Shown here: in pieces, positions 44,556 to 51,021 of the stretch | How the letters are laid out: every line of letters starts with the position of its first letter | How positions within the stretch are numbered: the stretch's first letter is position 1 | Source of the DNA: a virus | Lineage: Duplodnaviria > Caudoviricetes | Length of the DNA: 64,000 nucleotides | Strand: one strand, 5' to 3' | Virus record (IMG/VR): IMGVR_UViG_3300009873_000001 | Program-made: the position numbers and the translations under genes | The notes under the pieces: generated by a model | What the model was told of the DNA's origin: nothing | Databases searched by the model: none | What the model saw: the letters and a program-made list of their open reading frames with translations, nothing else

Positions 44556-44689
44556 TTGCCGACAAGTGGTGCAGAGAAGCTTTTTTGGCGTTCTGCCGTT
44601 GAACTACCTCGGCACGGAAAGCCGAGGGCCCGAGTCGAACGGGCGTCTCCCTCTTGGAATGAGATGGATTCCCTACTGGCATTCGGCAA
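44556..44689 (-). ncRNA. Y-RNA-like ncRNA a
   Basis: TTGCCGAATGC...CTTGTCGGCAA terminal stem; T arm, looped acceptor stem, D arm. Confidence 0.8.
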
Positions 44690-44761
44690 TGGGTCCGGAG
44701 GGACTTGCACCCTCGTACGCCGGGTAAGAGCCGGCAGTAATAGCTGCTATACGACGGACCC
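44690..44761 (-). tRNA. tRNA-Lys(CTT)
   Basis: GCCGG-CTCTTAC-CCGGC. Confidence 0.85.
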
Positions 44762-44770
44762 GTGGATTGA

Positions 44771-44842
44771 TAGAGGCGCTCGGTACTGCCCCGAGTTCTT
44801 CCGGGTAAAGGCCGGGTACTTCACTTACAAAGTTTCGCCTCC
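44771..44842 (-). tRNA. tRNA-Lys(TTT), divergent T-loop
   Basis: CCGG-CCTTTAC-CCGG; T-loop GGCAGTA. Confidence 0.7.
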
Positions 44843-44895
44843 GCGACTGGTGCCGCGGAGACGTTTGCGCTCTCGCATGTCTTGTTCTCCCCTGT

Positions 44896-44967
44896 TGATC
44901 CTGGCAGGCTTCGCACCTGCGGCCTTCGCCATGTCAAGGCGACGCTCTGCTCCTGAGCTACAGGACC
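44896..44967 (-). tRNA. tRNA-Val(GAC)
   Basis: TCGCC-TTGACAT-GGCGA. Confidence 0.9.
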
Positions 44968-45084
44968 GTTGATTGATTATCAGCATGTCGGTTCATATCG
45001 ATATCAAATCACTGCCGAGCAAGCTGGAGTTGCGATCTCCGAGTCTAGGCAGTAATGAATACTGATAGAAGCGACGGCAAGCGA

Positions 45085-45171
45085 AGGAGCGCGGCGGACT
45101 TGCACCGCAGCCAGCGAGCCGGCCGTTCCGATTTCAAATCGGTCCCCGACGCCTGGTCGAGTTCACGCTCC
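45085..45171 (-). tRNA. tRNA-Ser(TGA)
   Basis: loop TTTGAAA, long variable arm. Confidence 0.8.
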
Positions 45172-45183
45172 GTTGTTGACGGA

Positions 45184-45254
45184 TGGAGCTATCGAGAGTC
45201 GCACTCGAGATTCGACCTTGCCGAGGTCGCGTGATCCTACTTCACCATAGCCCC
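45184..45254 (-). tRNA. tRNA-Ala(GGC)
   Basis: G3-U70; loop TCGGCAA. Confidence 0.85.
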
Positions 45255-45257
45255 AGA

Positions 45258-45329
45258 TGGACACACTTGGGAATCGCACCCAAAACTCTGCTTTGCGAAA
45301 GCAGCGTGATCCTGTTTCACTAGTGGCCC
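45258..45329 (-). tRNA. tRNA-Ala(CGC)
   Basis: CTGCT-TTCGCAA-AGCAG; bulged acceptor. Confidence 0.8.
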
Positions 45330-45395
45330 AAGGCTGGCGGGCTCTGGCGTGCGCACGCCTTTGCCGCAATCCTCCGCTAAGAGCTTCTACCAGTA

Positions 45396-45469
45396 TCGGG
45401 GTGACAGGATTCGCACCTGCGGCCTTTTGCTCCCGAAGCAAACGCTCTACTAAGCTGAGCTACACCCCG
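45396..45469 (-). tRNA. tRNA-Pro(CGG)
   Basis: TTTGC-TTCGGGA-GCAAA. Confidence 0.9.
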
Positions 45470-45473
45470 TAGA

Positions 45474-45564
45474 CGGATCACGGAGGCCTTGCACCCCATC
45501 CCCGCGTGGCGGGAGACCAACCGCTTTCGAAGCGGTGCCGGCGCTCTGGGCCGGTTCGCGATCC
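45474..45564 (-). tRNA. tRNA-Ser(CGA)
   Basis: ACCGC-TTCGAAA-GCGGT, long arm, G73. Confidence 0.85.
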
Positions 45565-45632
45565 AACATGTGCGGACGCCGTTGACGGACCGGACTATTG
45601 AGTGTGAGCCCGCCGCTTCACTCCGCACATGA

Positions 45633-45701
45633 TCTCGACGGCGGGAGTCGCACTCGCTTCCTCTGCCTTATGAGAGCAGGGCCCCTCTGAGGGTCGTCGA
45701 G
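45633..45701 (-). tRNA. tRNA-Met/Ile2(CAT) with reduced D arm
   Basis: CTGCT-CTCATAA-GGCAG. Confidence 0.7.
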
Positions 45702-45705
45702 TTCA

Positions 45706-45776
45706 AGCCCATGGTGGGAGTTGCACCCACTTCTCCGCCTTACCAAAGCGGTATTCTGCTGTTGAACTACACGGGC
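45706..45776 (-). tRNA. tRNA-Thr(GGT)
   Basis: loop TTGGTAA. Confidence 0.9.
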
Positions 45777-45778
45777 AA

Positions 45779-45850
45779 TCGGGCACCCGAGACTTGCACT
45801 CGGAGTCTCTCGGCCCCCAGCCGAGTGCCTTTCTGTTAGGCCAGTGCCCG
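45779..45850 (-). tRNA. tRNA-Pro(GGG)
   Basis: CTCGG-CTGGGGG-CCGAG. Confidence 0.85.
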
Positions 45851-46456
45851 GTAATCAATCACTTCGTCGCATACAGCCTCTAACGACTGCCGTCGCCTAG
45901 GGCCAAGCTGGTCGGTGTTCACATACGCGATCTTGCGTCGTTTGTCGTCCTTGATTTCCGTCAAGCGGGCGATCATGTCTCCGAGCCCTTTTCCGTAGTC
46001 GGTTGAGTGCTCGATCACTAGATCGTCAGAGGCAAAATCTACTATGCGCGCCCCGATGCGCTCTTTCTTGAACTGCTTGCCGTACAGCGCCTCAAGCTTT
46101 GACTTGATTGGTAGTTCTTCTCTTGTGTAAGCGAGGCATGCTTTTTCGACGTTCTCTTTGGTCGCCGATAGTGTCCTTTCGCGGCACTCAGCGCTCCACG
46201 CCTTGGTGCCGCTTATCCGGCCTTGGCGGCGACATGCCTCTATGTCTTTCGGTTGCTGGCCAGCGGTTGACGGAATACGCTGAGCCAAGGCCTCCCGTTG
46301 TTCGGGAGTCAGCTCTACGTCCTTCACCATGTAGCGAATCGTGCTCTTCGGGAGGCCGAGCTCGTTCGCAATGTCGGTGTAGGACGCTCCGGATGCACGC
46401 ATTTTGCGCGCTCTGTCAATCGCTTCTTTTTGGTGCATGGCGTCCGAGGATATCAC
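45836..46456 (-). CDS. HTH plus putative PD-(D/E)XK nuclease (homing-endonuclease-like)
   Basis: GASYTDIANELGLPKSTI; IVDFASDDLVIEH; lower GC; start uncertain. Confidence 0.6.
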   Translation of the reverse strand: MISSDAMHQKEAIDRARKMRASGASYTDIANELGLPKSTIRYMVKDVELTPEQREALAQRIPSTAGQQPKDIEACRRQGRISGTKAWSAECRERTLSATKENVEKACLAYTREELPIKSKLEALYGKQFKKERIGARIVDFASDDLVIEHSTDYGKGLGDMIARLTEIKDDKRRKIAYVNTDQLGPRRRQSLEAVCDEVIDYRALA

Positions 46457-49664: not shown

Positions 49665-49748
49665 ACGCTCCGACGCTGGAGCTGCCCCAGCCAGGCCCGC
49701 AGGCGCAAGCAAGGACGCCTTGGCTCACAACCATGCGTCGATCGGAGT

Positions 49749-49820
49749 TGGGCACGGTGAGGATCGCACTCACGACTTCTTGCTTGTAAGGCAAGCACTC
49801 TACTGCTGAGTTACGCGCCC
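49749..49820 (-). tRNA. tRNA-Val(TAC)
   Basis: CTTGC-CTTACAA-GCAAG. Confidence 0.9.
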
Positions 49821-49824
49821 GTGA

Positions 49825-49954
49825 TTCCGCGACAAGGGGTGCTGAGACATTTATCCAGGCGCGCTGCTATTACGCTATACCCGATCTTTCGACCGGGCAT
49901 CCGGATTCGCACCGGCACTTCCTGGGCCATGTAGTCCCTGCTGCATTCGCGGAA
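49825..49954 (-). ncRNA. Y-RNA-like ncRNA f (YrlA-type topology)
   Basis: TTCCGCGAATGC...CTTGTCGCGGAA; T arm, GAAA-capped acceptor, D arm, joined through the anticodon stem CCAGG/CCTGG. Confidence 0.85.
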
Positions 49955-50026
49955 CAGCCCGCCAGGGACTTGCACCCTGAACCTTGCGCTCCAAAGGCGC
50001 TCGCTCTTCTGTTGAGCTAGCGGGCG
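49955..50026 (-). tRNA. tRNA-Gln(TTG)
   Basis: loop CTTTGGA, G73. Confidence 0.85.
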
Positions 50027-50037
50027 ACGAGAATCGA

Positions 50038-50109
50038 CTGCCCCTCTAGGAATCGCACCTAGGTCTCTCGGGTCAGAGCCGAGCGTCCGTGCTGCTGGAC
50101 TAAGGGGCA
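50038..50109 (-). tRNA. tRNA-Gln(CTG)
   Basis: CTCGG-CTCTGAC-CCGAG, U1-A72. Confidence 0.9.
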
Positions 50110-50119
50110 ATGTAGTTCG

Positions 50120-50347
50120 TTACGCGGACATGTTGATCTTCGTGCTACCGACGGCCTGAGCTAGCGTTTGTCGTGCGCCACTCGGGCCTCCAAACAAGAA
50201 TCGCGCTCGAGAGCGCTGTCGCCAGTGGCCGTGTTCGATTCGCGCCTGGCGCTCATCTGGCTTCGCACGCTTGCAGCGTCGCAGGTGGGAAGTAAGGCCG
50301 TTGGCCGAAAACTCTCCTTGGCAATACGGGCAGGTGGGATTGTTCAT
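50120..50347 (-). CDS. small zinc-finger protein
   Basis: CPYCQGEF...L..H..RC. Confidence 0.55.
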   Translation of the reverse strand: MNNPTCPYCQGEFSANGLTSHLRRCKRAKPDERQARIEHGHWRQRSRARFLFGGPSGARQTLAQAVGSTKINMSA

Positions 50348-50350
50348 GAT

Positions 50351-50423
50351 CAGGGGCGCTCGGAGTTGCACCGAGATCTCGGGTTTTGGAGGCCCGCCGG
50401 TTCCTGTTACCTGTCACGCCCCT
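50351..50423 (-). tRNA. tRNA-Trp(CCA)
   Basis: loop CTCCAAA, A1-U72, G73. Confidence 0.85.
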
Positions 50424-50430
50424 ATGCGAG

Positions 50431-50515
50431 CTTATGGGGTAGGACTCGCACCTACAGAGGGTCGCCCCACCTGGTTAACAGCCAGGCCCGCTACTGAATT
50501 ACGGTATACCCATGA
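50431..50515 (-). tRNA. tRNA-Asn(GTT) with atypical long variable arm
   Basis: CCTGG-CTGTTAA-CCAGG followed by GGG-GCGA-CCC. Confidence 0.75.
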
Positions 50516-50587
50516 CTCACCGGGTAGGGATCGCACCTACGACCCTCGCGTTAACAGCGCGCCGCTCTACTGCTGAGCTACCGGTGA
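50516..50587 (-). tRNA. tRNA-Asn(GTT)
   Basis: loop CTGTTAA, U1-A72, G73. Confidence 0.9.
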
Positions 50588-50593
50588 AGGAGA

Positions 50594-50665
50594 TGACGCC
50601 GAAGGGACTTGCACCCTCAGCCTCCTGGCTGAGAACCAGGCGATCTTCTGTTGATCTACGGCGCC
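50594..50665 (-). tRNA. tRNA-Glu(CTC)
   Basis: CCTGG-TTCTCAG-CCAGG. Confidence 0.85.
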
Positions 50666-50669
50666 ATAC

Positions 50670-50738
50670 TCGGCCGACAAGAAGCGACCGTGAGAGTTCA
50701 TTTCCCTAAAATGTACTCACGACCATGCATTCGACCGA
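50670..50738 (-). ncRNA. minimal Y-RNA-like ncRNA g (69 nt, stem only)
   Basis: TCGGTCGAATGC...CTTGTCGGCCGA. Confidence 0.7.
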
Positions 50739-50812
50739 TTGCGGAGGCGAGATTCGCACTCGCGACCTCAGGGTTATGAGCCCTGCGAGCTACTGGGCTG
50801 CTCCACTCCGCG
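50739..50812 (-). tRNA. initiator tRNA-fMet(CAT)
   Basis: C1xA72 mismatch, GGG/CCC anticodon stem. Confidence 0.9.
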
Positions 50813-50816
50813 ACGA

Positions 50817-50890
50817 CGCGCACGACGGGACTTGCACCCGCAAACCTTCGGCTCGACAGGCCGCTACTCTTCTAATTGAGCTACGTGCGC
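50817..50890 (-). tRNA. tRNA-Asp(GTC)
   Basis: loop CTGTCGA, G73. Confidence 0.85.
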
Positions 50891-50894
50891 AGGT

Positions 50895-51021
50895 TCCGAC
50901 GACAAGAGGAGCCAAGTGGCTTTGATCTAGCCCACGCCCTCCCACGAGTGGGAGTCCCGGGAGTCGAACCCAGGTCGATCCGTTTATCAGACGGATGTAC
51001 ACCCAGCGAGCATTCGTCGGA
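50895..51021 (-). ncRNA. Y-RNA-like ncRNA h
   Basis: TCCGACGAATGC...CTTGTCGTCGGA; Ile-like anticodon arm TCCGT-CTGATAA-ACGGA, T arm, looped acceptor. Confidence 0.8.

What the first reader, a model, noticed from the sequence alone, without database searches (positions are those of the whole stretch)
44556..51021. The Y-like RNAs present the tRNA fold in at least four different circular permutations
Seen: f is attached through the anticodon stem (YrlA-like). a and h are opened between the D and anticodon arms and keep 7-nt anticodon loops (ATTCCAA, CTGATAA). e is opened in the D loop (AG-ATA-GATC first, TA-GATC-AAC last, matching the D arm of tRNA-Glu(CTC) here). c is an unpermuted mini-cloverleaf attached through the acceptor stem. 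b has T and acceptor arms plus one hairpin; g has no cargo. Inference: a modular library exposing different tRNA surfaces (elbow, anticodon, closed acceptor) on a common handle, e.g. as baits for different tRNA-targeting defence enzymes. I know of no description of such variants.
Basis: partly seen in the sequence, partly recalled or inferred. Interest (0 to 1): 0.85.

Follow-up and report, generated by a model that had tools for sequence, protein, structure and literature searches.

The report
Y RNAs displaying differently opened tRNAs
A large bacterial virus keeps, between its tRNA genes, eight small RNAs that share one clamp for the Ro60 ring protein but each hold out a different face of a tRNA (or a piece of ribosomal RNA); the same mixed sets sit in RNA-repair gene clusters of many bacteria, so they probably serve as baits or docking sites for enzymes that cut or mend tRNA.

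Summary
Confirmed, with corrections. Eight RNAs on the minus strand share the YrlA-type Ro60 handle. Their cargoes show four tRNA connectivities: opened in the anticodon stem (f), between D and anticodon arms (a, h), in the D loop (e), and unpermuted (c). b is a T/acceptor fragment, g is empty, d carries a 23S-like segment.

The layouts are conserved classes: 940 handle RNAs in 327 viral and bacterial loci. In 55 e-type RNAs the D stem across the opening is 98% paired, with double changes. In a/h-type RNAs the first hairpin is a true anticodon arm whose anticodon varies on a fixed body; 45/83 encode CCA.

Mixed panels lie beside rsr (101/117) and rtcB (99/117) in bacteria, so this is not phage-specific. 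Ro60 is not in this window.

Partly published: f is YrlA, a/h has YrlA's four-hairpin order, c resembles Yrn1's orientation, g resembles YrlB/Yrn2, and a decoy role was proposed in 2020. I found no paper on the D-loop-opened class or the variable anticodons; three key reviews were unavailable. This scan saw the D-loop layout and anticodon display before, on other DNA. Function is untested.

The parts
43374..51094 (-). tRNA gene array (over 40 tRNA or tRNA-like genes) that carries the Y RNAs
   Evidence: ARAGORN 32 genes in this span, Rfam adds more
50897..51019 (-). Y RNA h: handle, anticodon arm 50995-50979 (Ile GAU loop), T arm 50973-50957, closed acceptor hairpin 50954-50939, degenerate D-like hairpin 50932-50918
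50672..50736 (-). Y RNA g: handle with only a small hairpin (YrlB/Yrn2-like)
   Evidence: many short homologues
49827..49952 (-). Y RNA f: YrlA layout; anticodon stem as connector (49925/49855), T arm 49916-49900, closed 9-bp acceptor 49899-49878, D arm 49875-49861
   Evidence: Rfam YrlA 32.4 bits; changes in relative L382 keep pairing
49461..49589 (-). Y RNA e: whole cloverleaf opened in the D loop; D 3' strand 49561-49558, anticodon-position arm 49556-49542 (5-nt loop), T arm 49536-49520, tetraloop-closed acceptor 49517-49502, D 5' strand 49497-49494
   Evidence: alignment A2 of 55 homologues, D stem 98.2% paired, 4/4 pairs with double changes; G-C to A-U change in the acceptor of L382
48950..49138 (-). 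Y RNA d: same handle, cargo begins with a 23S rRNA-like segment (about 49114-49096)
   Evidence: seven loci share the segment; the L128 version matches E. coli 23S rRNA in all 5,426 genomes
48372..48500 (-). Y RNA c: extra hairpin 48475-48458, then unpermuted D (48452-48439), anticodon-position (48437-48423, 5-nt loop) and T (48418-48404) arms on a short acceptor remnant
   Evidence: two double compensatory changes and two pair-keeping changes in relatives; absent as a clean indel in L382; homologous layout in L118, L304, L392, L288
46938..47040 (-). Y RNA b: T arm first (47013-46997), 7-bp closed acceptor 46996-46976, third hairpin 46975-46963
   Evidence: same layout in L121, L239, L425 and L232
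44557..44688 (-). Y RNA a: anticodon arm (loop 44660-44654, Gly UCC), T arm 44644-44628, 7-bp closed acceptor 44627-44607, canonical D arm 44604-44590; a complete tRNA opened between positions 26 and 27
   Evidence: Rfam YrlA 37.4 bits with alignment

Best explanation
The eight RNAs are Y RNAs of the Rsr/Ro60 system. Steps: (1, inferred from spacing) they are co-transcribed with the tRNA array and released when the flanking tRNAs are processed. (2, inferred from motif and gene linkage) the shared handle docks on a Ro60 ring, encoded elsewhere in this virus or by the host. (3, shown by conservation) the point where the handle is grafted decides which tRNA face stays free: f elbow plus sealed acceptor; a/h a full tRNA with a live anticodon loop and, in a, an acceptor that RNase P could open; e T/acceptor and capped anticodon arm with the D loop tethered; c the three arms without an acceptor end; b T/acceptor only; d an rRNA helix. 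(4, inferred) the panel engages different enzymes that recognise tRNA or rRNA during RNA damage, most likely as baits or competitive inhibitors of anticodon nucleases and tRNA-directed toxins, next to the RtcB/RtcA repair enzymes in bacteria. The virus carries the module to keep translation running when the host attacks tRNA.
For: Handle matches the published Rsr-binding motif (PMC4201824). Ro60 in 70/209 Y loci against 2/248 others, 101/117 bacterial loci, and 5/5 virus records that lacked it inside the fetched locus. RtcB family in 99 and RtcA in 44 of the bacterial loci. 88/117 bacterial loci carry two or more tRNA-part classes; 16 carry f, a/h and e together. Anticodon loops: of 110 long RNAs chosen by T-arm position, 74 have a 7-nt-loop hairpin and 48 have U33 plus purine 37 (shuffles mean 2.9, maximum 10); 45/48 have tRNA spacing to the T arm; 28 different anticodons; G37 goes with G36 (8/14 against 2/34, p = 0.0003). 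One acceptor strand carries eight different anticodons. 40-41 RNAs carry only an anticodon hairpin. The Salmonella operon is induced by cut tRNAs (PMC7790460). A Ro60-shaped phage protein counters the Ppl defence (bioRxiv 2024.10.10.617714).
Against: No Ro60 or RtcB gene in the window. No binding or processing was tested. Salmonella YrlA is not cut by the SOS-induced anticodon nuclease, though it has no anticodon loop. e-type RNAs almost never keep an anticodon loop (4/148), so they cannot bait anticodon nucleases that way. The demonstrated partner of Ro60-Y particles is PNPase, not a defence enzyme (PMC4201824; PMC12135203). RtcB was found in only 1 of 5 virus records. Loci are related and the search patterns were built from the handle, so counts are not independent samples.
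Confidence: 0.5

Rival explanations
1. Adaptors for repair and decay, not baits: each variant tethers Ro60 to a different host enzyme (PNPase, RtcB, RNase P, CCA-adding or modifying enzymes) so that damaged tRNA or rRNA is mended or degraded.
For: Panels sit with rsr and rtcB in about 85% of the bacterial loci. Y RNA tethering of Rsr to PNPase is established, and phage phiLo Ro60 with its Y RNAs binds host PNPase. Wang 2018 expects an elbow-binding effector.
Against: A fixed host partner does not explain anticodons that change freely on a conserved body while loop flanks stay tRNA-like, nor anticodon-only cargoes. Not exclusive with the best explanation.
Confidence: 0.3
2. Neutral scaffold: any stable tRNA-derived fold protects the Ro60 handle; the layouts arise repeatedly from tandem tRNA transcripts and differ without functional consequence.
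For: Both ideas are published (PMC4201824; dimeric-tRNA model). c is dispensable in a relative. e and f share the array's own G55 T loop, h is partly decayed.
Against: The same layouts recur in Alphaproteobacteria, Acidobacteria, Planctomycetes and viruses and co-occur as panels. Anticodon-loop flanks and CCA are kept in a/h (45/83) but not in e (6/148).
Confidence: 0.12
3. Permuted tRNA genes: a/h (and e) are cut out of the handle, ligated by RtcB and opened by RNase P to give working tRNAs, or work as two-piece charged tRNAs.
For: a/h types have 6-7 bp acceptor stems (73/83) and often encoded CCA. M. smegmatis YrlA is cut by RNase P and gains CCA. RtcB is next door in bacteria. a has U73 with a Gly anticodon.
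Against: The discriminator base does not follow the anticodon (22/73, shuffled mean 20.4, p = 0.37), and one acceptor serves eight anticodons, so the bodies are not coherent tRNAs. e, f, b, c lack usable anticodon loops. The array has its own tRNA-Ile(GAU) (48216-48287) and tRNA-Gly(UCC) (43449-43523).
Confidence: 0.08

Closest known systems
YrlA, the tRNA-like Y RNA of bacteria and mycobacteriophages (Rfam RF02553; Chen et al. 2014 PMC4201824; Wang et al. 2018 bioRxiv 10.1101/312249)
   Same: Same 5' Rsr motif and terminal stem; f has the T-acceptor-D order on an anticodon-stem connector; a/h have the four-hairpin order (called V, T, AS, D); some a/h-type homologues pass the Rfam gathering score (L503, 73.1 bits).
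   Different: YrlA is described as lacking an anticodon loop; here the 'V' hairpin of a/h types is an anticodon arm with a variable anticodon. The D-loop-opened type is not matched by Rfam at gathering score in four bacterial-type loci.
Deinococcus radiodurans Yrn1 and Yrn2; Salmonella and M. smegmatis YrlB
   Same: Yrn1 has the other D/T orientation with an anticodon-position hairpin between them, as in c; Yrn2/YrlB are hairpins without a full tRNA domain, as in g; M. smegmatis YrlB has a T arm, as in b.
   Different: Yrn1 has a metazoan-like handle and was seen as a separate lineage; here all layouts sit on one YrlA-type handle in one genome. Two or three Y RNAs per genome are described, against up to nine here.
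Phage Ro60 systems: Thermus phage phiLo Ro60 with Yrl1/Yrl2 (PMC12135203); Bas63 gp130 (bioRxiv 2024.10.10.617714)
   Same: Phage-encoded Ro60 with Y-like RNAs, linked to counter-defence (PNPase attenuation; Ppl).
   Different: The passages read describe no tRNA-part panel; the Ro60 gene of this virus was not located.
Circularly permuted tRNA genes of algae and archaea (cited in Wang 2018)
   Same: tRNA opened at internal positions with a closed acceptor loop.
   Different: Those are matured to decoding tRNAs by a splicing endonuclease; here the ends are held by a Ro60 handle and identity elements are incoherent.

Membership tests
Bacterial/phage Y RNAs (Rsr partners) | 5' GNCGAAN(0-1)G motif in a stem formed by the two ends | tested here: met
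   All eight have the motif or a one-letter variant in a 5-6 bp terminal stem with pair probability 0.8-1.0 where computed
Bacterial/phage Y RNAs (Rsr partners) | Ro60/Rsr gene nearby (within about 4 kb in Chen 2014) | tested here: not met
   None in the 64-kb window. Homologous RNAs do travel with it. The rest of this genome could not be searched
Bacterial/phage Y RNAs (Rsr partners) | Binding to Ro60/Rsr | not testable with these tools
   Needs immunoprecipitation or gel shift
YrlA (RF02553) | Score at or above gathering threshold 69 | tested here: not met
   a 37.4, f 32.4, e 27.4, b 22.5 bits
YrlA (RF02553) | T arm before D arm with a closed acceptor between them | tested here: met
   Met by a and f; h has a degenerate D arm; not met by c and e
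YrlA (RF02553) | L-shaped elbow with tRNA modifications | tested here: inconclusive
   Only indirect: G55 goes with a single-G D loop in 4/4 RNAs, U55 with GG in 156/175, but from two or three lineages
Permuted tRNA genes | Coherent identity: anticodon matches acceptor and discriminator | tested here: not met
   22/73 concordant, shuffled mean 20.4; eight anticodons on one acceptor strand
Permuted tRNA genes | Processing to a mature tRNA through a circular intermediate | not testable with these tools
   Needs RT-PCR and Northern blots

The most novel reading that the evidence does not exclude
Ro60 is a general display platform for a retargetable panel of translation-RNA mimics: anticodon loops that are re-tuned to the specificity of local anticodon nucleases or tRNA-modifying toxins, several elbow and acceptor presentations, and an rRNA helix. 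Bacteria and large viruses use the panel as an RNA-based inhibitor system beside RtcB repair.
Probability: 0.3. Interest if true: 0.9.

Novelty: new variant of a known kind. Interest (0 to 1): 0.7.

Why it matters
What bacterial Ro60 and its tRNA-like Y RNAs do in the RtcB repair operon is open (Hughes 2020 leaves it unanswered). These classes turn the question into direct tests: anticodon-bearing, D-loop-opened and anticodon-only Y RNAs exist in cultured, harmless strains (Mesorhizobium, Rhizobium, Sphingomonas, Methylocystis), and Myxococcus phage Mx1 has Ro60 with two Y RNAs, one with an anticodon loop. The D-loop-opened class is common yet missed by Rfam. If the bait model holds, it is an RNA-based way to block tRNA-targeting immunity.

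Tried and rejected
No genome is held for the window, and the look-up of the source contig gave no DNA, so Ro60 could not be sought outside the window. A protein search with the ORF next to the array found no relatives. The first loose handle pattern returned mostly chance hits. One search failed on output parsing and was redone. Direct blastn of d against E. coli found nothing; only the longer L128 version hit 23S. Bxz1 yielded no RNA with my strict handle finder. No RNA holder listed, so expression is unknown. Three reviews (PMC6047535, PMC10870794, PMC6542706) and the supplements of Chen 2014 are not held, which limits the novelty claim. Searches for papers on phage tRNA-mimic decoys and on YrlC gave nothing relevant. 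Rejected: that the a/h hairpin is merely a variable arm (loop rules and spacing say anticodon arm); that the library is phage-specific. My automatic classifier is rough: it filed h as a truncated type and g as anticodon-only, so class counts are approximate. For alignment A2 I dropped 14 of 69 candidates by eye as near-duplicates or other layouts.
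Full report
Setting. The region is a minus-strand tRNA array from an activated-sludge metagenome. The window has phage-type genes and no Ro60 or RtcB gene. Eight RNAs with one handle (terminal stem, CGAAUG-type motif, inner stem, UACA) are wedged 0-9 nt from tRNAs on both sides, which suggests release by tRNA processing (inference).

Observation. Closing each cargo into a circle restores a tRNA for a, h and f at ARAGORN's default score and for e and c at a relaxed score, against 1 of 440 shuffles. 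h lacks a proper D arm; c has an extra hairpin and a short acceptor remnant; c and e have 5-nt loops at the anticodon position. So there are four connectivities, three of them permutations, plus fragments.

Relatives of this virus. L382 is syntenic at about 89-95% identity over 46951-49948. It keeps b, d, e and f, has a G-C to A-U change in e's acceptor and pair-keeping changes in f, varies e's anticodon-position loop, and lacks c as a clean indel of about 142 nt. Two other relatives keep c; six listed changes all keep or improve pairing, two as double changes (48474/48459 and 48435/48425, mapped by hand).

The layouts are classes. Handle-based scans of viral, metagenomic and bacterial collections gave 940 distinct RNAs in 327 loci. 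Approximate counts of distinct cargoes: f-like 216, D-loop-opened 148, a/h 83, anticodon-only 58, c-like about 20, rRNA-like 7, T-first 4. Patterns were aimed at given layouts, so these are not frequencies. For 55 e-type RNAs the D stem across the opening is 98.2% paired, all four pairs show double changes (7, 3, 2 and 1 sequences), and the whole structure beats 500 shuffles and all slid controls. Most keep the tRNA-consensus D stem, so the covariation rests on few lineages.

The a/h hairpin is an anticodon arm. Chosen by pairing and T-arm position only, 48 of 74 seven-base loops have U33 and purine 37 (shuffles: mean 2.9, maximum 10); spacing to the T arm is 9-10 nt in 45 of 48; G37 follows G36 (p = 0.0003); 28 anticodons occur (first pass). 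Among pairs with at least 90% identity in the T/acceptor body, 271 differ in anticodon and 76 agree (pairs are not independent). 73/83 have 6-7 bp acceptors and 45/83 encode CCA, against 34/216 for f and 6/148 for e, yet the discriminator ignores the anticodon. In bacteria 27/42 carry G34-U35 anticodons, the queuosine set by my own knowledge; these genomes are related. e types rarely keep an anticodon loop (4/148).

Partners. Ro60 lies in 70/209 viral or metagenomic Y loci and 2/248 others, and elsewhere on all five virus records tested, including two whose arrays resemble this one. In bacterial genomes 117/120 hits hold Y RNAs, 101 with Rsr, 99 with the RtcB family and 44 with RtcA within 8 kb; 88 carry two or more classes. 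The library is thus a general feature of rsr-rtcB loci that large viruses also carry.

Mechanism. Shown: structures, modularity, linkage to Ro60. Inferred: expression, binding, function. I favour display of different tRNA faces as baits or competitive inhibitors during tRNA damage (0.5), then adaptors for repair or decay enzymes (0.3), neutral scaffolds (0.12) and permuted tRNA genes (0.08). Freely changing anticodons with fixed flanks, and anticodon-only cargoes, are the main reason. d extends the idea to rRNA: its segment recurs in seven loci and the L128 copy matches 23S rRNA.

Comparison with the literature. Chen 2014 (PMC4201824) gives YrlA, its optional fourth hairpin, the different orientation of Yrn1, cargo-less Yrn2/YrlB, and RNase P cleavage with CCA addition in M. 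smegmatis. Wang 2018 notes the likeness to permuted tRNAs and that YrlA lacks an anticodon loop. Hughes 2020 proposes competitive inhibition. Phage Ro60 proteins have counter-defence links. I found no paper on D-loop-opened Y RNAs, variable anticodon arms or multi-layout panels, and Rfam misses the e type, but three reviews were not readable. Earlier notes of this scan report the D-loop layout in one rsr-rtcB gap and anticodon display on a different handle; I read them after my own tests.

Verdict. A real and conserved feature; a new variant of the Ro60/Y RNA system; function untested. Interest 0.7.

Noticed in passing
window 43374-51094: Almost all array tRNAs have G55 in the T loop with a single-G D loop (28/30). 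Y RNAs e and f share this; a, b, c and h keep the usual U55.
   Followed up: partly
window 48950-49138; L121:209-412, L128, L288, L382, L404, L450: A class of Y RNAs whose cargo starts with a 23S rRNA segment, in seven virus-like loci.
   Followed up: partly
L305, L306, L309, L350, L352 and 13 RNAs in bacterial loci: A second D-loop-opened class in which an extra helix links the D loop to the handle.
   Followed up: no
L274, L288, L293, L384, L398, L404, L419, L450: YrlA-type RNAs built from long-variable-arm (Leu/Ser-like) tRNAs, opened in the anticodon loop.
   Followed up: no
L120:12144-12935, L128, L219 and five more; Mx1 WNM70110.1: A stand-alone VWA protein of about 240 aa travels with viral Y RNA loci.
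   Followed up: partly
window 35600-40920: A CRISPR-like repeat array next to a 642-aa protein with a Cas12f1-like TNB domain.
   Followed up: no
window 49665-49748; L382:198-383: An 84-nt three-hairpin element between tRNA-Val and tRNA-Gly, conserved in L382, which has a further insert of about 100 nt beside it.
   Followed up: no
window 47443-48009 and 45836-46456: An HNH endonuclease gene and a second ORF inside the tRNA array; the HNH gene is conserved in L382.
   Followed up: partly
L458 (Myxococcus phage Mx1) 3250-3373 and 3602-3703: Two unannotated Y RNAs in a cultured phage with Ro60; the second is overlapped by an annotated hypothetical CDS.
   Followed up: partly
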